Positions 8,456 through 62,774 of a stretch of DNA of 64,000 nt are shown here, in pieces. The translations under genes and the position numbers were made by a program. Numbering within the stretch: position 1 is the first letter of the stretch; each line of letters begins with the position of its first letter. The stretch is from an uncultured Nitrososphaerota archaeon (GTDB lineage Archaea > Thermoproteota > Nitrososphaeria > Conexivisphaerales > DTJL01). The stretch covers positions 192,001 through 256,000 of the forward strand of contig CAWJIE010000004.1 in NCBI GenBank assembly GCA_963842885.1, in the 5' to 3' direction. Below the pieces are notes generated by a model. The model worked only from the letters and a program-made list of their open reading frames with translations, did not search any database and was not told the DNA's origin.

Positions 8456-8645
8456 CTGGCTTCACTGAGTCTACCGACCTAGCCGTAGCTAGAAATACTT
8501 TGCTCGGCGGAGGGAGTCGAGAAGATTCTGAACAGGTTACAAAGCACTATTTAATCCAGTGATAATCCTGGCAGAAATCCACGTCAACTGTTGCGTGGCA
8601 GGGAAAGGTTATTATGGGATTTCGCAGTATATTTCAGTGGCGACG

Positions 8646-9167
8646 GTGTTGGACAAGAAACACTTGGACAAGACCGAATTGGGCATCCTCCGAGTGCTCA
8701 TCGACAACTCGCGAGAGACTCTTTCCGCGATCTCCGAGAAGACAGATACGCCGCTGAGCACCGTCAGGAACAAGTTCAACGGGCTTGTAGCCAAGGGCGT
8801 CATAAAGGGATTCACGGCGTTCCTGGACGTCAGGAAGATGGGGATGGTGGGCGCCGTGTTCCTGATCAGATGCGGCCGCAGCTACGACAAGGTGGTTGAC
8901 GCGGTGACCTCTCATCCCAACGTCGGATGGGTCATGGAGCTGGTGGGGGAGTATGACATCATCGGCGACGCGCTTTTCATGGATATGGATGAGATCTCTG
9001 GCTTCAAGGAATGGTTAATGAAACACGACGGAGTGATGGACGTCAGGATCGAGGTCCTGAAGAACTGGGTATCGGCTCCCAGGTTCCCCGCGCGTCTAAT
9101 CGACCTGTATAGGGAAACTTACTACGCCAGCCCGGCCTCGCCGGCTACAGAGAGCAAGCCTCAGTAG
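8646..9167 (+). CDS. Lrp/AsnC family transcriptional regulator
   Basis: LDKTELGILRVLIDNSRETLSAISEKTDTPLSTVRNKFNGLVAKGVIKGF HTH; LVGEYDI RAM domain; divergent from proline dehydrogenase. Confidence 0.85.
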   Translation: MLDKKHLDKTELGILRVLIDNSRETLSAISEKTDTPLSTVRNKFNGLVAKGVIKGFTAFLDVRKMGMVGAVFLIRCGRSYDKVVDAVTSHPNVGWVMELVGEYDIIGDALFMDMDEISGFKEWLMKHDGVMDVRIEVLKNWVSAPRFPARLIDLYRETYYASPASPATESKPQ

Positions 9168-46896: not shown

Positions 46897-47409
46897 ATGA
46901 GAGCCGACAGGCTACAGCTGGAGGCTTCCTTTGAGTACTTCTATGGGGAAGGGGTGGCAAGGCATCTCCCTTGGAGCAGGATCACATGCATCAGGTCTCG
47001 GAAGAGCCAGAGGATGAAGAAGGCCCTACTCGACGACCGGCTGTTGGCGACTGTGAGGGAGGACGGCAGCATCGCGTACACGCTGGAATGCGCGAAATAC
47101 CTGATGAAGAGTGCGGCCTTCAGGGAGAGCTGCATAGTCGTCAACGATGACGCTGCGCAGTTCGTCGTGAGGGGGAAATCGCTCTTCTCCAAGCATGTGC
47201 TCAGTGTGGGCGCCAACGTCAAACCCGGTCTGGAGGTCTGTCTGCTGGATGGGAAGGGGGAGCTCCTAGCTGTCGGCAAGGCCATACTTCCCAGGGGCTA
47301 CATGGGAAGGATGCAGAGCGGGGCTGCGGTGCGAGTGCGAGAGGGGACCCGTTCTACAGCTGCAGGAAAGGATTTAAGAGCCGAAACGGGGAAGGCAACT
47401 CTGACTTGA
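46897..47409 (+). CDS. PUA domain RNA-binding protein (resembles ArcTGT C-terminal domains)
   Basis: LLATVREDG, GKSLFSKHV, ELLAVGKA, AVRVREG. Confidence 0.8.
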   Translation: MRADRLQLEASFEYFYGEGVARHLPWSRITCIRSRKSQRMKKALLDDRLLATVREDGSIAYTLECAKYLMKSAAFRESCIVVNDDAAQFVVRGKSLFSKHVLSVGANVKPGLEVCLLDGKGELLAVGKAILPRGYMGRMQSGAAVRVREGTRSTAAGKDLRAETGKATLT

Positions 47410-47738
47410 TGGACAACAGGCAGGCCCGGAGAATGATGGAGCGGATGGGCCTGAACATGAACGAAATCAAAGATGTGAAAGAGGTAGTCATTCTCACATC
47501 AGAGAAGGAGATCCATCTGGAGAAGGCGTCGGTCTTCGAAATCAAGGCCAAGGACACGCGCGTCTTTCAGGTCACAGCGGAGAATGTCACGGAGAAGACC
47601 ATCGCCGCTCCGAAATTCACCGAAGAGGACGTCTCCCTAGTGGTAACGAGCGCCAACGTCAGCCGGGAGAGGGCCATCTCGGCACTAGAGGAGACCGGCG
47701 GCGACATAGCGCTCGCCATCCTACGCCTGAAGCCATAG
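47406..47738 (+). CDS. nac: Nascent polypeptide-associated complex protein
   Basis: RRMMERMGLNMNEIKDVKEVVI, EEDVSLV, ALEETGGDIALAI (UBA). Confidence 0.9.
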   Translation: MMDNRQARRMMERMGLNMNEIKDVKEVVILTSEKEIHLEKASVFEIKAKDTRVFQVTAENVTEKTIAAPKFTEEDVSLVVTSANVSRERAISALEETGGDIALAILRLKP

Positions 47739-47762
47739 GCCGCGGAACGTTCCTTCCTGGAT

Positions 47763-47857
47763 TGTCAAAACCTGTTGACCTGATGCGTTGAGGCGTCTCC
47801 TGACGGTCGTCGCGTCTCATCGTATGTGGAAAGGGCATTTGTCAACATTGATTAACC
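47763..47857 (+). promoter_or_regulatory. Paired TGTYRACA-like boxes upstream of nrdJ (putative operator)
   Basis: TGTCAAAA-CC-TGTTGACC (47763-47780) and TGTCAACA-TT-GATTAACC (47840-47857), just upstream of an A-rich BRE/TATA-like segment at ~47858-47872. Confidence 0.45.
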
Positions 47858-47921
47858 AAAAACGCTAATAAAGGGCCAAACCATCTGGTGGCGGCTTTTA
47901 AGAGGCTAGTGGTTAAACAGC

Positions 47922-50501
47922 ATGGCGGTCCTTTCGTCAAGAATCAAGTCAGTCCGCAAGCGCGACGGCAGGGTTGTAGCGTATGACAGCAGCAAGATAT
48001 CTGAGGCCATCTGGAAGGCCATCAAGGCCACCGGTGGCAAGGACAGGTCGACGGCCGTCGAACTCTCGCTCAAGGTCAACGAAATCTTGGAGAAGCGGTT
48101 CGGGGAGGGGGCCGTGCCTTCTGTCGAGGATGTGCAGGACGCCGTCGAGCATGTTCTGATAGAGGGAGGATATGCCAAGACCGCCAAGGCCTACATACTC
48201 TACCGCCAGAAGAGGGCCGAAATCCGCGAGGAGAAGATGAAGATCCTCGAGAAATCGGACATCGACGAAGTAGACAAGAGCTTCGATAGCAACGCCCTCA
48301 AGGTCCTCAGGGCGCGATATCTGCGCAAGGATGAGAACGGCCATGTCTTGGAGTCGCCCAAGGAGCTCTTCATGAGGGTGGCCCTGCACACCGCATTGGC
48401 CAGCATCCTCTACGATCCTAGGGTTTTCGACGTCAAGGGAGGACAGCCCACAAAGGAGGCCCCTGAAAACGTCGATCTCATGGCGTATGCGGACCTGGGC
48501 GTGGGAAGGTTCAAACTTAACCAGTTCCACGTGGAAGCTCTTCTGCGTGTCTTCAAACGGTTCAACGCCTCCGGGAAGTCCAAGGTGTCGTGGCAGGAGC
48601 TGCTGGAGATGTTCAGGAGAGGGGATTTCACCTCTTACGAGAAAGAGGTGGATGACTACCAGACGCTCATGGTCAGCAAGCATTTCATGCCGAACACTCC
48701 GGCATTGGCCAACTTCGGCAACGTGTTGGGAATGGGCTCGGCCTGCTTCGTACTGGACGTCGCTGACTCCATAGACGACATAATGGAGACGCTGAGGAGC
48801 GCGGCGATAATATTCAAGGCTGGAGGAGGGGTCGGCTACAACTTCTCCAAGCTGAGGCCTGAAGGAGACTTCGTCAAGAGCACGTCGGGCATCGCTTCGG
48901 GTCCCGTCAGCTTCATGCGACTGTTCGACACCATGACCGAAGTGATCAAGCAGGGAGGGATAAGAAGGGGCGCCAACATGGGCATCCTCAACATCAACCA
49001 CCCCGATATCGAGAGCTTCATCAAGGCTAAGGAGGGGAACAAGGCGCTCAGGAACTTCAACATATCCGTCCTCGTACTGGACGATTTCTGGAATTACTAC
49101 AACAAGAACGAACCGTATCCGCTGGTGAACCCCAGGACACATGAAGTGACGCGCTATGTGAACCCCAAGCAGCTCCTCGACATGATCGCTTTCCAGGCGT
49201 GGGAGAGCGCCGAGCCGGGGGTCATCTTCTCCGACAAGGTCAACGAGTTCAACCCCTTCCTCAAGTCGCTCGGCCCCATAGTGACCACCAACCCATGCGG
49301 AGAAGTCCTGCTCTACCCCAATGAGTCATGCAACCTGGGAAGCATCAACGTGGCGGCGTTCACAAAGGAGGACGACGATGGGAACGTCACCTTGGACTGG
49401 GATGGCCTGAGGGACACGGTCGAGATGACGACCAAGTTCCTCGACAACGTGATCGACATCAACCACTACCCTCTCCAGGCTATCGAGGATATAACCCTGA
49501 AGACGAGGAAGATAGGGCTGGGGGTGATGGGGATGGCCGACATGCTCTTCGAGATGGGCGTGGCGTACAACAGCGAGGAAGGGCTCAAGTTCATGGAGCG
49601 GTTGATGGAGTTCGTCAACTACCATTCGAAGAAGGCCTCCATCAAGCTCGCGAAAGAGCGTGGTGTCCTGCCGTCCTTCGAAGATAGCAGCTACAAGGAA
49701 GGGAAGTTGCCGTTCGGAGGTTTTGCGGACCAGTCCTCCTGGCACTTCGACTGGAAGGGGCTGGCGGAGGAGATAGCGCGAGAGGGAGTGAGGAACGGTT
49801 ACACCACCGTCATCGCCCCGACGGGGAGCATCTCGATGATAGCAGGATGCAGCAGCGGCATAGAGCCGGTCTTCGCCCTCGTCTACGAGAAGAATGTATC
49901 GATAGGGAGCTTCTACTACGTTGACACTGCCTTCGAGAAGGCGATGAAGAAGGAGGGTCTCTTCGATGACGACCTCCTCAAGCAGATAGTCTCCAACCAC
50001 GGCAACATAGGGGGCGTGTTCTACCTGCCCGAGAAGATCAAACATGTCTACGTCACGGCCATGGATATCGGCCCTGAAGACCACGTCAGGGCGATTGCGG
50101 CCTTCCAGAAGTGGGTCGACTCCAGCATCTCAAAGACGACAAACCTACCTGCTGAGGCCACCGTGGAAGACGTGAAGAAAGTGTACATGCTCTCCTACGA
50201 GCTGGGATGCAAGGACGTCACGGTGTACAGGGACAAGTCCATAACGAGCCAGGTCTTGCGCACACCGGCGTCAGGAAAGGAGGAGAAGGGTCCTGGGCTG
50301 GCGCCGCAGAAGACCGGTCCCACCCCTCTCGCCGTGCACGCTCCCGTTTCGTCTCCGCTCCAGACCTTCAACGCCCGTCTGAGCTTGGATGGCAAGAACG
50401 GCAGCCTGACCAACTGCCCCTCCTGCAGCACCAAGTTGGAGTTCAAGGAAGGCTGTGCGACATGCCCCGGCTGTGGCTGGAGCCTGTGCGTCAGCGCCTA
50501 G
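47922..50501 (+). CDS. nrdJ: Adenosylcobalamin-dependent (class II) ribonucleotide reductase with N-terminal ATP cone
   Basis: VRKRDGR ATP cone, FMPNTP, SACFV, RRGANMG, TNPCGE, CNLGSIN, APTGSIS, ISKTTN, TVYRD, C-terminal zinc ribbon. Confidence 0.95.
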   Translation: MAVLSSRIKSVRKRDGRVVAYDSSKISEAIWKAIKATGGKDRSTAVELSLKVNEILEKRFGEGAVPSVEDVQDAVEHVLIEGGYAKTAKAYILYRQKRAEIREEKMKILEKSDIDEVDKSFDSNALKVLRARYLRKDENGHVLESPKELFMRVALHTALASILYDPRVFDVKGGQPTKEAPENVDLMAYADLGVGRFKLNQFHVEALLRVFKRFNASGKSKVSWQELLEMFRRGDFTSYEKEVDDYQTLMVSKHFMPNTPALANFGNVLGMGSACFVLDVADSIDDIMETLRSAAIIFKAGGGVGYNFSKLRPEGDFVKSTSGIASGPVSFMRLFDTMTEVIKQGGIRRGANMGILNINHPDIESFIKAKEGNKALRNFNISVLVLDDFWNYYNKNEPYPLVNPRTHEVTRYVNPKQLLDMIAFQAWESAEPGVIFSDKVNEFNPFLKSLGPIVTTNPCGEVLLYPNESCNLGSINVAAFTKEDDDGNVTLDWDGLRDTVEMTTKFLDNVIDINHYPLQAIEDITLKTRKIGLGVMGMADMLFEMGVAYNSEEGLKFMERLMEFVNYHSKKASIKLAKERGVLPSFEDSSYKEGKLPFGGFADQSSWHFDWKGLAEEIAREGVRNGYTTVIAPTGSISMIAGCSSGIEPVFALVYEKNVSIGSFYYVDTAFEKAMKKEGLFDDDLLKQIVSNHGNIGGVFYLPEKIKHVYVTAMDIGPEDHVRAIAAFQKWVDSSISKTTNLPAEATVEDVKKVYMLSYELGCKDVTVYRDKSITSQVLRTPASGKEEKGPGLAPQKTGPTPLAVHAPVSSPLQTFNARLSLDGKNGSLTNCPSCSTKLEFKEGCATCPGCGWSLCVSA

Positions 50502-50503
50502 GG

Positions 50504-52561
50504 TCAGGCAAGGGGAGCAGTAGCCCCACCGCATAGGCCGCAGCGCTCAGTTCCAGCGACTTCCTTGTTTCCGCATTTCTTGCATAGAGCTATCAGCGGT
50601 CTGATAGTGAAGTGGGGGAGGCGCACATTTGCCTTTTCGATGAGCTTGGCAGCGTCGTTCAGGTCGGTGATTGGAAGGGACAGCCGCGCAAGCACTCCTC
50701 CGCCGATACTGCCGTCCAAGTCGTCCAGCCGCGCACCTGTGGACTCCGAATCCAGCTCCTTCGAGTCGATGGAGAAGGCCTGGCCGTACTGCGAAATGCT
50801 GAGGTTCTTCATCTTGGCCCTCCCGAACCTTTCGACATCGAGCTGGGGGAACCGGATGGCGCTGTCGTCGATGGTCAGCACCAATGCGAACTTCTCATCG
50901 CCCTCCTTGCCAGCCGTTTCGAGGTACTGGTTTGCCGAGATAATCGTCTTCTCCTGCAGCTCCGCCAGCTCCTTGGTGGACGAATCTGGGCTTACCAGCT
51001 TGAGCGAATCCTCGAGCCCTGTCAGGTTCACCCTCAACAGGGGAGACTCGGAGTAGAGGAGGTTGCTCAGGACGTCGAGGGCAGGGAGGAGGCCGTTCTT
51101 CATGTTGTTCTGTATGAGGCGGCGCCTCACCCGTAGCGCGTTGACGGCGTTTTCGAGTTGCATCGTGACCCGGGCGCGGAAGTATACCTCGTCGTTGTGA
51201 GCGTCAAGAGCTATGCGCGGAAGGTTGATCGATATAGAGTCCAGGACCACGGGGCCGCCCTTCTTGAAGTCGTCGACGCTCAGGCCCTGGAAGGTCCTCC
51301 GGCGGCCACTCCCCTTGGACAGGGATATCATCCCGTTGTTCCTCGCTATCTCGGCCAGAGGCCTGTAGGCTGACTTCTCCAGTTTCTCGGAGTTGATGAT
51401 GGCCAGACCTATCGAAGGTGATGGGGTCGCCTTGACGTAGTCCAAGTATCCTCTGAAGAGTGAGTTGAAGATGCCGCCGGTCGTCTTCGCTGCGTCCACT
51501 TCGAGCTCGACCTTTGGACGCTCCGAGCCCTCCGGATAGGCATAGGCCATGAGATAGAAGAAGGAAGAGTAACCCTTGGCGTCGAGGTCAAGCTTCTGAG
51601 CGAGATCTGTGAAGCCCGCAAGGAAGATCTCTCTCCCCGCCTCGCGCGTCAGCAGATAGCTGAGCGACAATAGCTTGGTCAGGTTCTCTTCGTCCGTGTT
51701 GTCGTAGCCTTCTCTGGGCGTGTGAGGGAACTTCGCGCCCAGGCGTGACAGGGAAAGCGACTGGTCGCTGATGTTGATGAACAGAGCATCAGGACGTAGC
51801 CCCCAGTAGTTGACGTTGGCGATGTGGATGTCGCCTGAAAGATGGGAGTCTACGACGTCTCGGGGCAGCTGTATCAGCATGAGGTACTCTGAGAGCACGG
51901 AGCCCGCCGTCTGGTTGAAGACGCCCTCAAGTCCGTAGGGCCCTTCGCCTAGCTTCTCGAGGTTCTCCGTTACGTCGTAGACGGGCATCCCTAGCCGGCT
52001 CAGGCGGTGCCGGTACTCCTCCAGACCCTCCTCGATCAGGATCGAGTTCACCAGCTCCCTGATCAGGGGGGCCGTGAGGTAGGCAGTCTGAAACTTGTAG
52101 ATCCTGGATTCGGCTTCGCTGGAGATCCTCTGGGCCAGCTCCACGGGCATCCCGGCCTCGGTGACAAGAGAATGGATTATCTTGTCGGTGGTGAACTCCT
52201 CCATCCTGTGGCGGGAGCTTCGGACGAAGAGCCTTCCGCTCTCCAGGAGGGCCTGCTCCTCTATCTGCTTCGCCGCGTTCAGGACCAGCCGACCCAGCGT
52301 GGTGAGCATGTACTTCCGCTCGGCCCGGTTCTGAGCTATCAGGTTCTGCCTGAGCAGCTTCCGAAGATGGTAGGCGAACTTGCCCGACTCCTTCTTCGAC
52401 TTGAATCCGGCCAGCGTCTTCAGCTCTGAATAAGTCATCGGCCCTTTGGCGTTGAGTATCTTCAGTATCTCAAGGCGGCTGGGGGAAGCGATGACGGAGA
52501 AGATAGTCTTCACGCGGCGAATGGAGACCTGAGTGCTCATAGAACCACTTATTGACATCAC
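50504..52561 (-). CDS. ArsR-type wHTH + ATP cone + degenerate class III RNR (NrdD-like) domain protein; putative regulator/pseudoenzyme
   Basis: SPSRLEILKIL...GKFAYHLRKL wHTH; VRSSRHRMEEFTTDKI...LTAPLIRELVN ATP cone; RLGMPVYDV, HLSGDIHI, SINLPRIA, RFPQLD..RFG NrdD-like motifs; the only Cys are in the terminal CKKC/CGLC ribbon. Confidence 0.85.
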   Translation of the reverse strand: MMSISGSMSTQVSIRRVKTIFSVIASPSRLEILKILNAKGPMTYSELKTLAGFKSKKESGKFAYHLRKLLRQNLIAQNRAERKYMLTTLGRLVLNAAKQIEEQALLESGRLFVRSSRHRMEEFTTDKIIHSLVTEAGMPVELAQRISSEAESRIYKFQTAYLTAPLIRELVNSILIEEGLEEYRHRLSRLGMPVYDVTENLEKLGEGPYGLEGVFNQTAGSVLSEYLMLIQLPRDVVDSHLSGDIHIANVNYWGLRPDALFINISDQSLSLSRLGAKFPHTPREGYDNTDEENLTKLLSLSYLLTREAGREIFLAGFTDLAQKLDLDAKGYSSFFYLMAYAYPEGSERPKVELEVDAAKTTGGIFNSLFRGYLDYVKATPSPSIGLAIINSEKLEKSAYRPLAEIARNNGMISLSKGSGRRRTFQGLSVDDFKKGGPVVLDSISINLPRIALDAHNDEVYFRARVTMQLENAVNALRVRRRLIQNNMKNGLLPALDVLSNLLYSESPLLRVNLTGLEDSLKLVSPDSSTKELAELQEKTIISANQYLETAGKEGDEKFALVLTIDDSAIRFPQLDVERFGRAKMKNLSISQYGQAFSIDSKELDSESTGARLDDLDGSIGGGVLARLSLPITDLNDAAKLIEKANVRLPHFTIRPLIALCKKCGNKEVAGTERCGLCGGATAPLA

Positions 52562-52614
52562 TTGCTATATCTAGGTCTAAAAAGGTTTACCACTCGGTTG
52601 GCTGCTGTGAAGGC

Positions 52615-52692
52615 TGGTGGGGCCGGGCGGATTTGAACCGCCGATCACCAGCGCCCGAGGCTGGTAGCGTAACCAAGCTAGCCCACGGCCCC
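52615..52692 (-). tRNA. tRNA-Pro(CGG), intronless, CCA encoded
   Basis: Reverse complement GGGGCCG TG GGCTAGCTTGGTTACGCT A CCAGC CTCGGGC GCTGG TGATC GGCGG TTCAAAT CCGCC CGGCCCC ACCA. Confidence 0.95.
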
Positions 52693-52818
52693 AAGAGACG
52701 AAGCTGGCGGCTGCCCGTCTGTGGCAGTTTCAACCGGCACTTTTAAGCTTGTATCATGTGGCCGGCTCTGGTCTTTTGATAAGTTTAAAGAAGCAAAGGC
52801 GCCGACTAGGAAATTCGG

Positions 52819-53895
52819 ATGAAGATCGTCGTCACCGGCATCAGCGGGGCGGGCCGCGGCTCCTACCTGTCAGAGGTCGAGGGCCTAGCCAGGGCGGACG
52901 GGAGGAGCATCAGGATCTTCGAGACCGGCGACATGATGTTCGAGACCGCCAAGAAGCTGGGCATCGAGATACCGGAGGATAAGATCCTTGACCTGTCACC
53001 TTCTACGTTGAACTTCCTTAGAACGACCGTATTCGAGCAGATCATTAGGGAGTCCAAGGAGGTGGAGGACATCGTCATCAGTACCCACGCGTGTTTTCGC
53101 TGGAAGAAGCACATCATCCAGGCCTTCGACTTCCACTACCTCGACCAGATTCGTCCTGACGTCTATGTTTCCATCATCGACTCCATCACTTCGATAAGGG
53201 CCCGGCAGGAAATGACGTCGCAGTGGAGGGGGCAGCTCTCCATGAAGGACATTCTGGTATGGAGAGACGAAGAGGTGTTCGTGACGAAGTCGATAGCGGA
53301 CTTTCAGAGGAGGACGTTCTACATCATACCCCGCGACGAACCCCCCGAGACGCTATTTCGCCTCCTCTATCGTCCGGGTACAAGGAAGGCGTACCTGAGC
53401 TACCCGATGACGCACACCGGAACGGATGAAGAAGATGTGAAGAGGAAGGACGCTTTCAGGGACAGGTTGCGCGACGCAGGGATGGTCGTGTTCGATCCCA
53501 TCTCCATAGGGGATGGCGAGCTCTTGGCTTTCTTGGCCGACGCTAGAAGCAAAGGGGAGAGGACGATAGCCTATTCGAAGGGGAGGACGACCGTGAAGTT
53601 CGACATAAAGGAGGCGGAGGAGGTGAGCGACGACGTCAACGACCAGATCGTCGCCAGGGATTATCAGCTCATCGACCAGAGCGACATGATAGTGGTCTAC
53701 TACTTTCTCCCCGTCATGTCGCCGGGAGTGCTTTCCGAGATGACCTATGGTTTCACGAACAAGAAGAACGTCTACGCCGTGTTCAAGGGTCAGGAGTCGC
53801 CATTCTTCAGATACTACTCCACCAAGATATTCCAAGACGAAGATGCCCTCCTTGGGTACCTGAAGGAGAAGGCTGGAGGGGAGCCAACCAGCTGA
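52819..53895 (+). CDS. Archaeal adenylate-kinase-like domain fused to a nucleoside 2-deoxyribosyltransferase-like domain
   Basis: VTGISGAGRGS P-loop, ISTHA (cf. AdkA VDTH), WRDEE; C-domain KAYLSYPM, DYQLIDQSDMIVVY, SPGVLSEMTYG. Confidence 0.7.
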   Translation: MKIVVTGISGAGRGSYLSEVEGLARADGRSIRIFETGDMMFETAKKLGIEIPEDKILDLSPSTLNFLRTTVFEQIIRESKEVEDIVISTHACFRWKKHIIQAFDFHYLDQIRPDVYVSIIDSITSIRARQEMTSQWRGQLSMKDILVWRDEEVFVTKSIADFQRRTFYIIPRDEPPETLFRLLYRPGTRKAYLSYPMTHTGTDEEDVKRKDAFRDRLRDAGMVVFDPISIGDGELLAFLADARSKGERTIAYSKGRTTVKFDIKEAEEVSDDVNDQIVARDYQLIDQSDMIVVYYFLPVMSPGVLSEMTYGFTNKKNVYAVFKGQESPFFRYYSTKIFQDEDALLGYLKEKAGGEPTS

Positions 53896-54323
53896 AGACG
53901 ACGATCTACGTGGGCGGGCTGCTTATAGACGGGGGGAGCATCTTGCTGAAGACGGGAGGAGGGGCTTCCCAACAGTGGCTTCGCCCCCCAGGCAAGTACC
54001 TCGAGGGTGATGAGACCCTTGAGATGGCGGTGTCCAAGGGTTTCAAGGAGGAGACCGGATGGACGTGCGCCGTGAGGGACCTGGCTTACGTCATAGAGTC
54101 GTTCAAGGGCGACGGTGAACGGGAACTGGGCGTCTACTTCCTGGTCGGCGTTCCTTCGCTCAGGGACCGGAACGTCGTGGAGTCAGGGCTCCGATTTGTC
54201 TCAGTGGAGGATATGATAACGATGGATGTGCGCCCTGCCGTCCTGGCTGGGAAGATATTCGCAGACGAAAAGAGGGGCTCGTGTGGATCCGCCACCTACC
54301 TAGTCAACCACTGGAATGATTGA
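53892..54323 (+). CDS. Nudix hydrolase with degenerate Nudix box
   Basis: WLRPPGKYLEGDETLEMAVSKGFKEETGW; frame stays open back to the preceding stop, start uncertain (53892-53910). Confidence 0.75.
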   Translation: MKTTIYVGGLLIDGGSILLKTGGGASQQWLRPPGKYLEGDETLEMAVSKGFKEETGWTCAVRDLAYVIESFKGDGERELGVYFLVGVPSLRDRNVVESGLRFVSVEDMITMDVRPAVLAGKIFADEKRGSCGSATYLVNHWND

Positions 54324-62668: not shown

Positions 62669-62774
62669 TGTCAAAAGGTGTCGACAGGGTGCCGGCCAAA
62701 GTGTCGACACGGTGTCGACACCCCGTCAACAGGGTGTCGCGCAAGAGCCGACACCCGCCATGACGGTGTCAGAC
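62669..62774. repeat. Non-coding tandem array of TGTCGACA-like 8-bp palindromes with ~11-bp period
   Basis: Units start at 62669, 62679, 62690, 62702, 62713, 62724, 62735, 62746, 62767; outliers at 62521-62547 and 62604-62624. Confidence 0.8.

What the first reader, a model, noticed from the sequence alone, without database searches (positions are those of the whole stretch)
50504..52561. Dead class III ribonucleotide reductase fused to a DNA-binding domain: candidate archaeal NrdR-analogous dNTP sensor
Seen: a 685-aa protein made of an ArsR-like wHTH (~1-100), an ATP cone (~110-185), an NrdD-like body and a terminal zinc ribbon. It has no cysteine outside the ribbon, so the NrdD active-site cysteines are absent (e.g. 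HLSGDIHIANVNYWGLRPDAL). It stops right after the ribbon with no glycyl-radical loop (R..GY), and no NrdG activase gene is nearby. Its stop codon lies 2 bp from the stop of a complete class II nrdJ, so the truncation is not a frameshift artefact. Established: NrdD needs the glycyl radical and thiyl Cys; ATP cones bind ATP/dATP; bacterial NrdR uses an ATP cone plus a DNA-binding domain to repress nrd genes. Inference: an RNR pseudoenzyme repurposed as a transcription factor that reads (d)NTP pools through the cone and perhaps the retained specificity site, and controls nrdJ. Pipelines would likely mislabel it as an anaerobic RNR. I recall similar architectures in Nitrososphaerota annotations but no functional description; novelty needs a literature check.
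Basis: partly seen in the sequence, partly recalled or inferred. Interest (0 to 1): 0.85.

Follow-up and report, generated by a model that had tools for sequence, protein, structure and literature searches.

The report
Dead anaerobic RNR turned gene regulator
An archaeal protein that is a catalytically dead copy of the oxygen-sensitive ribonucleotide reductase, fused to a DNA-binding domain, sits beside the cell's only working reductase gene and probably switches it on or off, which may explain how these archaea control DNA-precursor synthesis.

Summary
ORF 50504-52561(-) encodes wHTH + ATP-cone-like domain + NrdD-like barrel + Cys4 ribbon. Its only four Cys are the ribbon's, it ends 8 residues after the last Cys, and no NrdG or second NrdD was found in the assembly (87% complete). 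The likely start is the ATG at 52540 (678 aa).

It belongs to a large family in one archaeal phylum. Bathyarchaeia carry a ~760-aa form with a vestigial Gly-radical tail. Nitrososphaeria carry a ~690-aa form without the tail. In 75 aligned members, none keeps the bottom-face Cys or the finger-loop Cys pair.

In Nitrososphaeria, nrdJ lies immediately downstream in 74 of 80 loci; the other 6 contigs end within 480 nt. An inverted repeat, GTCAA-N5/6-TTGAC, occurs in 53 of 75 nrdJ upstream regions, about 24-fold denser than in the rest of the same loci. It occurs in 0 of 8 nrdJ upstream regions from genomes that lack the protein. The window's nrdJ promoter holds the only pair of such sites in the 2.03-Mb assembly. 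The body is predicted to form a dimer.

Best reading: a dimeric, RNR-derived transcription factor dedicated to RNR genes and functionally analogous to NrdR. Nucleotide sensing is inferred, not shown. Ten literature searches found no description.

The parts
50504..52561 (-). ORF of the wHTH / ATP-cone / dead-NrdD protein (685 aa from GTG; likely CDS 50504-52540, 678 aa from ATG)
   Evidence: P0002, 678 aa, 100% identical; frame-breaking 1-nt deletion between the GTG and the ATG in relative L046
52274..52507 (-). N-terminal winged helix-turn-helix (residues 19-96), ArsR-like, with no Cys
   Evidence: DUF7347 42.6 bits and HTH_20 33.4 bits, both over cut-off; 66-71% identical to Nitrosopumilaceae-type orthologues; the near-invariant motif [ED][SA]G[KR]F[AGV]YHL[RK] was the search pattern
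52013..52228 (-). ATP-cone-like domain (residues 112-183) with a VR[ST]S[RK] start in place of the canonical KRDG (canonical motif recalled)
   Evidence: 25.1 bits, cut-off 25.8; 36-46% identical to the cones of true NrdDs of the same phylum, 4 of 7 of which share the variant start (3 have VRRSD)
50597..51994 (-). NrdD-like alpha/beta barrel body (residues ~190-655) without the catalytic Cys residues; predicted homodimer interface at residues ~190-230, 275-307, 328-348 and 371-383
   Evidence: AlphaFold2 model, pLDDT 90.4, pTM 0.81; top Foldseek hits are class III RNRs, E 4e-19 to 1e-10; family profile against PDB NrdDs, E 2e-40 to 4e-31; catalytic columns; dimer score 0.84 against best control 0.00
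50513..50593 (-). C-terminal Cys4 zinc ribbon (Cys 660, 663, 674, 677); the protein ends 8 residues later, with no Gly-radical loop
47922..50501 (+). nrdJ, class II (B12-dependent) RNR with an N-terminal ATP-cone; the only RNR catalytic gene found in the assembly; convergent with the regulator, 2 nt between stops
47763..47780 (.). Candidate operator site 1 upstream of nrdJ: inverted repeat TGTCAA-N6-TTGACC (core GTCAA-N6-TTGAC exact)
   Evidence: one of 3 exact N6 cores in 2.03 Mb; the only one of those 3 outside a >=100-aa ORF; in relatives L046-L049 the half-sites are conserved while the spacer varies
47840..47857 (.). Candidate operator site 2 (TGTCAA-N6-TTAACC), 77 nt downstream of site 1 and ending 8 nt before a TATA-like box
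   Evidence: the same 77-nt spacing in L046 and L047; the only pair of >=9/10 sites within 40-110 nt in the assembly
47865..47873 (+). TATA-like box (ctaataaag) of the presumed nrdJ promoter
   Evidence: read from the sequence; conserved in L046 and L047; inference only, no transcript data
52576..52584 (-). TATA-like box (CTTTTTAGA) of the regulator's own presumed promoter; a lone GTCAA half-site follows at ~52550-52556
   Evidence: box conserved in W and L046-L049; inference only

Best explanation
The gene encodes a transcription factor built from a catalytically dead class III ribonucleotide reductase. An ancestral NrdD with an ATP-cone, of the Bathyarchaeia/Thermoproteota type, was duplicated. 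The copy gained an N-terminal ArsR-like winged-helix domain and lost the thiyl-radical Cys residues. In the ancestor of Nitrososphaeria it also lost the whole glycyl-radical domain. The protein keeps the NrdD dimer. This places two winged-helix domains on the inverted repeat GTCAA-N5/6-TTGAC, which lies in the promoter of the organism's RNR gene: nrdJ here and in ammonia oxidisers, nrdD in some Bathyarchaeia. In some clades the repeat also lies in the regulator's own promoter. The retained ATP-cone, and perhaps the dimer-interface specificity site or the empty substrate pocket, are proposed to bind ATP/dATP/dNTPs and alter DNA binding or oligomeric state, so that RNR transcription follows the nucleotide pools. 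That would make it a functional analogue, not a homologue, of bacterial NrdR. Shown by computation: the architecture, the loss of catalytic residues, the fold, the predicted dimer, the gene linkage, and the conserved and specific DNA motif. Inferred: that this protein binds that motif, that nucleotides are the effectors, and the sign of regulation. Site 2 abuts the BRE/TATA region, and in the Nitrososphaerales clade the regulator's own site lies about 35 nt before the start codon. This favours repression, but weakly.
For: Architecture and dead active site: (bottom Cys 0 of 75 against 7 of 7 true NrdDs; finger-loop Cys pair 0 of 75 against 6 of 7; the Gly column is a gap in 33 of 40 sequences <=725 aa). 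Fold: pLDDT 90.4; class III RNRs are the top Foldseek hits. No activase and no second NrdD in the assembly. Family size and conservation: 4368 proteins at E<=1e-3 among 8000 scored; 144 of 201 genomes of the phylum, including 26 of 26 in family f2. The wHTH and cone are the best-conserved parts: 66-71% and 58-61% identity, against 26-33% for the body (L010-L034). Linkage: nrdJ is directly downstream in 74 of 80 loci (70 tandem, 4 convergent); the other 6 contigs end within 480 nt. In a second, overlapping sample, 23 of 25 loci are tandem. The long form lies directly upstream of a true nrdD in L039-L042 and L129, and of nrdJ in L130. Operator: >=9/10 core match in 53 of 75 nrdJ upstream regions, 2.88 sites/kb against 0.12/kb in 920 kb of the same loci; exact matches 0.418 against 0.005/kb. 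With the 12-position pattern, >=10/12 in 23 of 70 regions against 22 of 1400 shuffles. GTCAA-N6-TTGAC ties for the top exact 5-mer palindrome (8 sequences; the maximum in 50 shuffles is 4). Half-sites are conserved while spacers vary between relatives. The window holds two sites 77 nt apart, the only such pair in the 2.03-Mb assembly. 0 of 8 nrdJ upstream regions carry the motif in same-phylum genomes without the protein. The regulator's own upstream region carries a site in 17 of 75 loci; 7 of them (a Nitrososphaerales clade) lie at -33 to -36 from the ORF start. A Bathyarchaeia-type long form (L129) has a perfect GTCAA-N6-TTGAC in its own promoter. Dimer: ipSAE 0.84 (three runs: 0.87, 0.84, 0.74) against best control 0.00; the runs agree in >=88% of contacts; partner pLDDT >=84. 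This mark was reached by 20 of 30 proteins solved as pairs and 1 of 23 solved as single chains. Because NrdD dimers are solved, the pass may reflect likeness to them. No Rfam riboswitch lies upstream of nrdJ. Canonical NrdR was not found in the assembly or in 0 of 26 f2 genomes, and is over cut-off in only 8 of 201 genomes of the phylum. A Nature Communications 2022 paper calls NrdR 'rare in archaea' (PMC9110341, passages read).
Against: No experiment or transcript data bear on this. No RNA run was listed. The DNA motif could belong to another factor. In the window's own clade the regulator's promoter shows only one half-site, so autoregulation is not general. Nitrososphaera-type loci show no clear motif, and 22 of 75 upstream regions have no >=9/10 site. 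Outside Nitrososphaeria, linkage to RNR genes is patchy: 2 of 16 loci chosen without regard to neighbours. The ATP-cone scores just under Pfam's cut-off here, and its N-terminal hairpin lacks the canonical Lys-Arg pair (recalled motif), so nucleotide binding is unproven, although 4 of the 7 neighbouring true NrdDs share the variant start (3 have VRRSD). Family f13 has both canonical NrdR (8 of 8) and the long form (8 of 8), so the two are not strictly alternative. The tree is FastTree only and is rooted on 7 NrdDs of one phylum.
Confidence: 0.6

Rival explanations
1. It is a DNA-binding regulator of RNR genes, but the effector is not a nucleotide. The cone is degenerate, and the barrel senses something else (for example cobalamin status or redox state) or serves only as a dimerisation scaffold.
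For: The ATP-cone hit is under the cut-off (25.1 against 25.8). The hairpin motif is non-canonical. The body is the fastest-evolving part (26-33% identity between orders).
Against: The cone is among the best-conserved segments of the family (58-61% identity between orders; several invariant and near-invariant residues fall within the cone). It is homologous to the cones of neighbouring true NrdDs, with the same variant start in 4 of 7. A 470-residue barrel kept with high model confidence in thousands of genomes is more than a dimerisation scaffold needs.
Confidence: 0.2
2. It acts at the protein level: a dead paralogue that binds NrdJ (or NrdD), for example through cone-cone contacts, and modulates enzyme activity. 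The wHTH would serve another purpose, such as tethering.
For: Both proteins carry ATP-cones. Established knowledge: cones mediate nucleotide-dependent oligomerisation in RNRs and NrdR (abstract of PMC9110341). Gene adjacency fits a protein partner as well as a regulator.
Against: A conserved inverted repeat specific to RNR promoters co-occurs with the protein. The wHTH is the most conserved domain. The partner enzyme changes class (nrdJ or nrdD) while the wHTH and the half-site stay the same. No complex with NrdJ was tested here.
Confidence: 0.1
3. It is still a ribonucleotide reductase, working by a non-canonical radical mechanism or together with a separately encoded glycyl-radical subunit.
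For: The NrdD fold, the NLPR motif, the RLxxLD..YG motif and the zinc ribbon are retained. Public annotation calls it an anaerobic RNR.
Against: There is no Cys outside the ribbon. 0 of 75 members have the thiyl Cys pair or the bottom Cys. There is no Gly domain. No NrdG was found over cut-off in the assembly. By their record titles the hosts include Nitrosopumilus, Nitrososphaera and Nitrosotalea, which are aerobic ammonia oxidisers (recalled), where an oxygen-sensitive glycyl radical would be of no use. A complete nrdJ is present.
Confidence: 0.01
4. It is a decaying pseudogene or an assembly or annotation artefact.
For: None beyond the missing catalytic parts.
Against: Intact ORFs of constant length across orders. 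A confident fold. A single short-form clade of 38 sequences with internal conservation. Conserved gene order.
Confidence: 0.01

Closest known systems
NrdR (bacterial RNR repressor: N-terminal zinc ribbon + ATP-cone, ~150 aa)
   Same: A dedicated regulator encoded with or near RNR genes. It carries an ATP-cone. Paired DNA sites lie in RNR promoters (NrdR boxes; here two inverted repeats 64-86 nt apart in 14 of 53 loci with a strong site). The proposed logic, nucleotide pools controlling RNR transcription, is the same (abstracts of PMC9110341 and PMC12176259).
   Different: Not homologous as a whole: TIGR00244 is not among the NCBIfam matches of this protein. DNA binding would be by a winged helix, not a zinc ribbon. 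The protein is about 4.5 times larger because it carries a whole NrdD barrel and dimer. The ribbon is C-terminal and inherited from NrdD. The phyletic range is archaeal (Nitrososphaeria, Bathyarchaeia), where NrdR was over cut-off in only 8 of 201 genomes.
NrdD, class III anaerobic ribonucleotide reductase (T4, T. maritima, P. copri, S. thermophilus structures)
   Same: ATP-cone, ten-stranded barrel fold, NLPR and other core motifs, Cys4 ribbon, predicted dimer through the N-terminal helices.
   Different: No thiyl Cys, no bottom-face Cys, no glycyl-radical domain (short form) or a degenerate one (long form; Gly kept in 10 of 35). No NrdG in the assembly. An added wHTH. Scores far below every NCBIfam NrdD equivalog cut-off.
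One-component regulators with an enzyme-derived sensor domain, such as MocR/GabR-type wHTH + aminotransferase-fold proteins (recalled, not tested here)
   Same: An N-terminal winged helix fused to a full-size, dimeric enzyme fold that no longer needs to catalyse and serves as the ligand-sensing and dimerisation module.
   Different: The sensor fold is a glycyl-radical-enzyme barrel of an RNR. I know of no example of this and found none in 10 searches. The regulated gene encodes an enzyme with the same activity as the sensor's ancestor.
Catalytically inactive RNR large-subunit homologues of herpesviruses (e.g. MCMV M45; recalled, with only a search listing seen)
   Same: An RNR large-subunit fold kept after loss of catalysis and put to another use.
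   Different: Those derive from class I R1, act in cell-death signalling, and have no DNA-binding domain or link to RNR gene control.

Membership tests
Class III RNR catalytic subunit (NrdD) | Ten-stranded alpha/beta barrel of the glycyl-radical-enzyme/RNR type | tested here: met
   Model pLDDT 90.4. The Foldseek top hits listed down to rank 34 are all NrdD structures, E 4e-19 to 1e-10. Family profile against PDB NrdDs, E 2e-40 to 4e-31.
Class III RNR catalytic subunit (NrdD) | Thiyl-radical Cys on the finger loop (the 'CC'/'GC' motif; Cys416 in P. copri per PMC11226230) | tested here: not met
   The window protein has Gly-Leu at these columns. 0 of 75 family members have the Cys pair; 6 of 7 true NrdDs of the phylum do. 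The PDB alignments show MGCRS and SCCRL opposite non-Cys residues.
Class III RNR catalytic subunit (NrdD) | C-terminal glycyl-radical motif R..GY (Gly711 in P. copri, PMC11226230) | tested here: not met
   The protein ends 8 residues after the ribbon. The Pfam match stops at profile position 528 of 562. The column is a gap in 33 of 40 sequences <=725 aa.
Class III RNR catalytic subunit (NrdD) | Second (bottom-face) Cys after the HxxGxIHxH motif | tested here: not met
   0 of 75 family members; 7 of 7 true NrdDs.
Class III RNR catalytic subunit (NrdD) | Partner activase NrdG in the genome | tested here: not met
   TIGR02495 best hit 39.8 bits against a cut-off of 131.15, in an 87%-complete assembly.
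Class III RNR catalytic subunit (NrdD) | Curated equivalog score | tested here: not met
   TIGR02487 51.7 bits against 326.35; NF006126 51.3 against 548.
ArsR/SmtB-type winged-helix regulators | wHTH of the HTH_20/HTH_5 type | tested here: met
   HTH_20 33.4 bits (cut-off 27); DUF7347 42.6 (cut-off 27.6); HTH_5 16.0 (under its cut-off of 22).
ArsR/SmtB-type winged-helix regulators | Metalloregulator subfamily score and metal-binding Cys/His sites | tested here: not met
   NF033788 28.1 bits against a cut-off of 55. There is no Cys in the first 659 residues.
NrdR | N-terminal zinc ribbon followed by an ATP-cone, ~150 aa (TIGR00244) | tested here: not met
   TIGR00244 is not among the protein's NCBIfam matches at E<=1. 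The genome search found no TIGR00244 match in the assembly.
ATP-cone domain (PF03477) | Pfam gathering score | tested here: inconclusive
   25.1 bits against 25.8 for this protein. 27.4 bits for the L039 long form. PF03477 is listed for most homologues. 36-46% identity to the cones of true NrdDs.
ATP-cone domain (PF03477) | Binding of ATP/dATP | not testable with these tools
   Needs ITC or a structure. The N-terminal hairpin reads VR[ST]S[RK] instead of the canonical KRDG (canonical motif recalled).

The most novel reading that the evidence does not exclude
The dead barrel is not just a scaffold. It still binds an NTP in the former substrate pocket, a dNTP at the dimer-interface specificity site, and ATP/dATP at the cone. 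The transcription factor would then re-use the enzyme's three-site allosteric cross-talk to convert the NTP/dNTP balance into promoter occupancy. On this reading an entire RNR allosteric apparatus was converted into a gene switch, first to regulate its own active paralogue (nrdD in Bathyarchaeia). It was then kept to regulate an unrelated RNR class (nrdJ) when Nitrososphaeria, whose members include aerobic ammonia oxidisers (recalled), no longer carried a true nrdD.
Probability: 0.3. Interest if true: 0.9.

Novelty: new variant of a known kind. Interest (0 to 1): 0.78.

Why it matters
How archaea control RNR transcription is largely unknown, and the bacterial regulator NrdR is rare in them. 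This family is present in 144 of 201 sampled genomes of its phylum and in every sampled genome of one ammonia-oxidiser-type family (26 of 26). It is glued to nrdJ in organisms that matter for the global nitrogen cycle, so it is a concrete and testable candidate for that missing regulator. It also gives a clean case of pseudoenzyme evolution in ordered steps: duplication next to nrdD, wHTH fusion together with loss of the radical Cys residues, then loss of the Gly-radical domain. Finally, it flags a systematic annotation error. Calling these genes 'anaerobic ribonucleotide reductase' wrongly implies anaerobic dNTP synthesis in Nitrososphaeria and inflates nrdD counts in metagenome surveys.

Tried and rejected
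- An active RNR was rejected on the catalytic columns and the missing activase.
- A pseudogene or artefact was rejected on conservation.
- A riboswitch or other known cis-RNA upstream of nrdJ: none in Rfam at E<=1 across window 47500-53000, apart from the tRNA.
- A bacterial-type promoter or terminator explanation for the palindrome: nothing found by the consensus scan of 47600-48000.
- A wider regulon in this genome: the other two exact N6 cores lie inside long ORFs. An 11/12 match at window 62669-62686 lies between a TiaS-like gene and a small ribosome-biogenesis-like gene with no link to nucleotide metabolism. It was not pursued.
- The motif in the intergenic regions of the tandem long-form/nrdD loci L039-L042: no >=9/10 site with spacers 4-7, except GTCAA-N4-TTGAA in L040. 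The operator is therefore not shown for those four loci.
- Expression: no RNA holder was listed for window 47600-52900.
- Literature: 10 searches and passages of PMC9110341, PMC13450708, PMC7785015 and PMC11226230 gave no description of a wHTH-NrdD fusion or a dead NrdD regulator. Subscription journals and supplementary files were not visible and may hold one.
Full report
**1. What is at the coordinates**

The minus-strand ORF 50504..52561 exists as described: 685 aa from a GTG.

- Pfam finds a winged helix at residues 19-96 (DUF7347 42.6 bits; HTH_20 33.4 bits; both over cut-off).
- It finds an ATP-cone at 112-183 (25.1 bits, just below the 25.8 cut-off).
- It finds NRDD at 64.5 bits. The best stretch, 433-678, covers profile positions 272-528 of 562, so it stops short of the Gly-radical end.
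- NCBIfam's NrdD equivalog models score 51.7 bits or less against cut-offs of 326-764.
- The only cysteines are 660, 663, 674 and 677, and the chain ends at 685.
- nrdJ (47922..50501, +) is complete and canonical. Two nucleotides separate the two stop codons.

The real start is probably the ATG at 52540 (678 aa). A close relative has a 1-nt deletion between the GTG and that ATG. The protein collection holds the 678-aa form. A conserved TATA-like box at 52576-52584 fits that start.

In the assembly (2.03 Mb, 11 contigs, 87% complete):
- This gene is the only PF13597 match.
- nrdJ is the only PF02867 match.
- No NrdG-type activase reaches its cut-off (best 39.8 bits against 131).

**2. Fold and active site**

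An AlphaFold2 model built on a 71-sequence alignment is confident (pLDDT 90.4, pTM 0.81). Its best Foldseek matches in the PDB are all class III RNRs: S. thermophilus 9dca (E 4e-19), T. maritima, P. copri and phage T4. A profile of the family matches the same PDB sequences at E 2e-40 to 4e-31.

That alignment shows the residue-level picture:
- The 'NCC-LID' segment after the HxxGxIHxH motif faces non-Cys residues.
- The finger-loop 'MGCRS' / 'SCCRL' faces non-Cys residues.
- 'RI[TV]GY' faces a degenerate tail, seen only in the long relatives.

I aligned 75 family members with 7 true NrdDs taken from genomes of the same phylum.

| Position | True NrdDs | Family members |
|---|---|---|
| Bottom-face Cys | 7 of 7 | 0 of 75 |
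| Finger-loop Cys pair | 6 of 7 | 0 of 75 (usually Gly + Ile/Leu/Val; one member has a single Cys in the first column) |
| Radical Gly | 5 of 7 | 10 of 35 sequences >725 aa; gap in 33 of 40 sequences <=725 aa |

The whole wHTH-bearing family is therefore catalytically dead, not only this protein.

**3. The family and its history**

The word-indexed search gave 4368 proteins at E<=1e-3 among 8000 scored. The exhaustive search of 50%-identity representatives gave 970, of which 168 have E<=1e-30.

Two forms exist:
- A ~690-aa form like the window's. By source names and record titles it occurs in Conexivisphaerales, Nitrososphaerales, Nitrosopumilaceae, Nitrososphaera, Nitrosotalea and Gagatemarchaeum.
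- A ~750-780-aa form that keeps a C-terminal tail. The sources name it as Bathyarchaeia/Bathyarchaeota.

Names given by the sources alternate between 'anaerobic ribonucleoside-triphosphate reductase' and 'ArsR family transcriptional regulator'.

In a sample of 201 genomes of the window's phylum, 144 have a match at E<=1e-10. This includes 26 of 26 in family f2 and 0 of 15 in f12.

A FastTree tree of the shared cone-plus-barrel columns, rooted on the 7 true NrdDs, gives three results:
- The family is one clade (support 100).
- 38 short forms are one clade (support 100, stem length 1.1) nested among the long forms.
- This fits one fusion-and-inactivation event followed by one loss of the Gly-radical domain. 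The tree method is quick and the outgroup narrow, so this is provisional.

The family's cone is 36-46% identical to the cones of the true NrdDs. Four of those 7 share its unusual VR[ST]S[RK] start (the other 3 have VRRSD). This points to descent from an NrdD of this phylum.

**4. Linkage to RNR genes**

In 80 Nitrososphaeria loci from named public genomes:
- nrdJ is the next gene downstream in 74.
- 70 of these are in tandem on the same strand (gaps 37-875 nt).
- 4 are convergent with 1-5 nt between stops. These are the relatives most similar to the window's protein (58-87% identity).
- The other 6 contigs end 0-478 nt after the gene.

The two samples may share genomes.

In some Bathyarchaeia-type genomes the long form lies directly upstream of a true nrdD. 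In L039, for example, a 766-aa long form is followed by a 708-aa NrdD scoring 518 bits. L040-L042 are arranged likewise, but I picked these four because both genes matched on one contig.

Of 16 further loci chosen without regard to neighbours, 2 had an RNR gene next door: nrdD in L129 and nrdJ in L130. Others had NAC or pyrB/pyrI genes. Linkage is therefore universal in Nitrososphaeria and patchy elsewhere.

**5. A candidate operator**

Comparing the nrdJ upstream regions of the window and its four closest relatives showed an inverted repeat, TGTCAA-N6-TTGACA. Its half-sites are conserved while the spacer and flanks differ.

In the window:
- Site 1 is at 47763-47780 (1 mismatch).
- Site 2 is at 47840-47857 (2 mismatches). 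It ends 8 nt before a TATA-like box.

Statistics over 75 nrdJ upstream regions:
- 53 have a >=9/10 match to GTCAA-N5/6-TTGAC.
- Site density is 2.88 per kb, against 0.12 per kb in the remaining 920 kb of the same loci.
- Exact matches are 0.418 against 0.005 per kb.
- With the 12-position pattern, 23 of 70 tandem-locus regions score >=10, against 22 of 1400 shuffles.
- In a count that assumed no motif, GTCAA-N6-TTGAC tied for the most frequent exact 5-mer palindrome (8 sequences). The ties were TTGAC-N5-GTCAA, which overlaps it in several loci, and an A/T-only word. No shuffle exceeded 4.

These sequences are related, so the counts overstate independence. The variable spacers argue against simple inheritance.

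Clade differences:
- Nitrosopumilaceae-type loci carry an N5 version about 95 nt before nrdJ.
- Nitrososphaera-type loci show no clear site.

Negative control: 0 of 8 nrdJ upstream regions in same-phylum genomes that lack the protein have a >=9/10 site.

In the window's own 2.03-Mb assembly:
- The nrdJ promoter holds the only pair of >=9/10 sites within 40-110 nt.
- Of the three exact N6 cores, only that one lies outside a long ORF.

The regulator's own upstream region carries a site in 17 of 75 loci. In 7 of them (a Nitrososphaerales clade) it sits at -33 to -36 from the ORF start. One Bathyarchaeia-type long form has a perfect site before its own TATA-like box. The window's own regulator promoter has only a single half-site.

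No Rfam element other than a tRNA lies in 47500-53000.

**6. Dimer**

Two copies of residues 190-685, folded with the family alignment, gave ipSAE 0.84 (three runs: 0.87, 0.84, 0.74) against a best control of 0.00.
- The runs agree in at least 88% of contacts, and partner pLDDT is at least 84.
- This mark was reached by 20 of 30 proteins solved as pairs and 1 of 23 solved as single chains.
- The interface is symmetric and uses the N-terminal helices (190-230) plus residues 275-307, 328-348 and 371-383.
- NrdD dimers are solved, so this may show likeness to them rather than independent evidence.

A dimer fits a palindromic site. Two sites 64-86 nt apart, seen in 14 of the 53 loci with a strong site, would fit a higher oligomer.

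**7. Reading**

The most economical account is a dedicated RNR-gene transcription factor derived from a dead NrdD. It would work like NrdR but is not related to it as a whole.

- NrdR itself was not found in the assembly.
- It is over cut-off in only 8 of 201 genomes of the phylum, all in family f13. That family also carries the long form, so the two can coexist.
- The NrdR literature I read calls NrdR rare in archaea (PMC9110341, passages).
- The P. copri NrdD paper places Gly711 and Cys416 as the radical pair. In the text I searched, it does not mention archaea or DNA-binding fusions (PMC11226230).

Three things remain inferred: that this protein binds the motif, that nucleotides are the effectors, and whether it represses or activates. 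The cone is conserved but non-canonical at its first hairpin.

**8. Novelty**

Ten full-text searches and four papers read in part gave no description of this architecture or function. The library lacks most subscription journals, and supplements were closed, so prior mention cannot be excluded.

As a type, it is a one-component regulator with an enzyme-derived sensor, which is a known design. An RNR barrel used as the sensor, controlling RNR genes, appears to be new. I rate it a new variant of a known kind, with high interest for the RNR and archaeal transcription fields.

Noticed in passing
window 52819-53895 (+) and 53910-54323 (+): On the upstream side of the regulator, beyond the tRNA gene and on the opposite strand, lies a 358-aa ORF. 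It combines an AAA_17 nucleotide-kinase-like domain (49.3 bits) with a nucleoside 2-deoxyribosyltransferase-like domain (25.7 bits, under the 28.8 cut-off). A NUDIX hydrolase follows. This may be a small deoxynucleotide-metabolism neighbourhood.
   Followed up: partly
window 52615-52692 (-): A tRNA-Pro(CGG) gene lies directly upstream of the regulator on the same strand, about 30 nt before the regulator's TATA-like box. The arrangement is conserved in relatives L046 and L047.
   Followed up: partly
window 47790-47820 and equivalent places in L051-L072: A third conserved element, GCGTCTCA(T), lies between the two candidate operator sites of nrdJ. In the window it occurs twice (~47792-47799 and 47812-47820). 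In several Nitrososphaerales loci it runs straight into a TTGAC half-site. Its role is unknown.
   Followed up: no
L050, L052, L059, L062, L063, L068, L073, L077 (nrdJ upstream): Site 1 is preceded by a further half-site, giving TTGAC-N5-GTCAA-N6-TTGAC. These are two overlapping dyads, which suggests that more than one dimer binds.
   Followed up: no
L129 ~8540-8860: In one Bathyarchaeia-type locus a small thioredoxin/NrdH-like ORF (CxxC motif) seems to lie between the long form and the true nrdD. This was read from the DNA only and was not scanned against Pfam.
   Followed up: no
L042 4176-6083 (-): The 635-aa NrdD-like gene next to the long form in genome G004 keeps the bottom-face Cys. However, it has Gly-Leu at the finger-loop Cys pair and Ala at the Gly column, so it may be a second, wHTH-less degenerate paralogue rather than a working NrdD.
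   Followed up: no
genomes of family f13 (G013, G061, G077, G133, G148, G155, G169, G190): These 8 genomes carry both a canonical NrdR (154-163 bits, over cut-off) and the long wHTH-NrdD form. They would be a natural test case for division of labour between the two.
   Followed up: no
window 47406-47738 (+); L126, L133: A NAC (nascent polypeptide-associated complex) gene neighbours the RNR/regulator locus both here (upstream of nrdJ) and next to long forms in distant lineages. pyrB/pyrI are neighbours in L039, L131, L136 and L141. This may be old synteny.
   Followed up: partly
window 50400-50501 (NrdJ residues ~826-858): NrdJ ends in a Cys-rich CxxC...CxxC tail with only weak IBR-like hits (E 0.024). 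It was not examined further.
   Followed up: no
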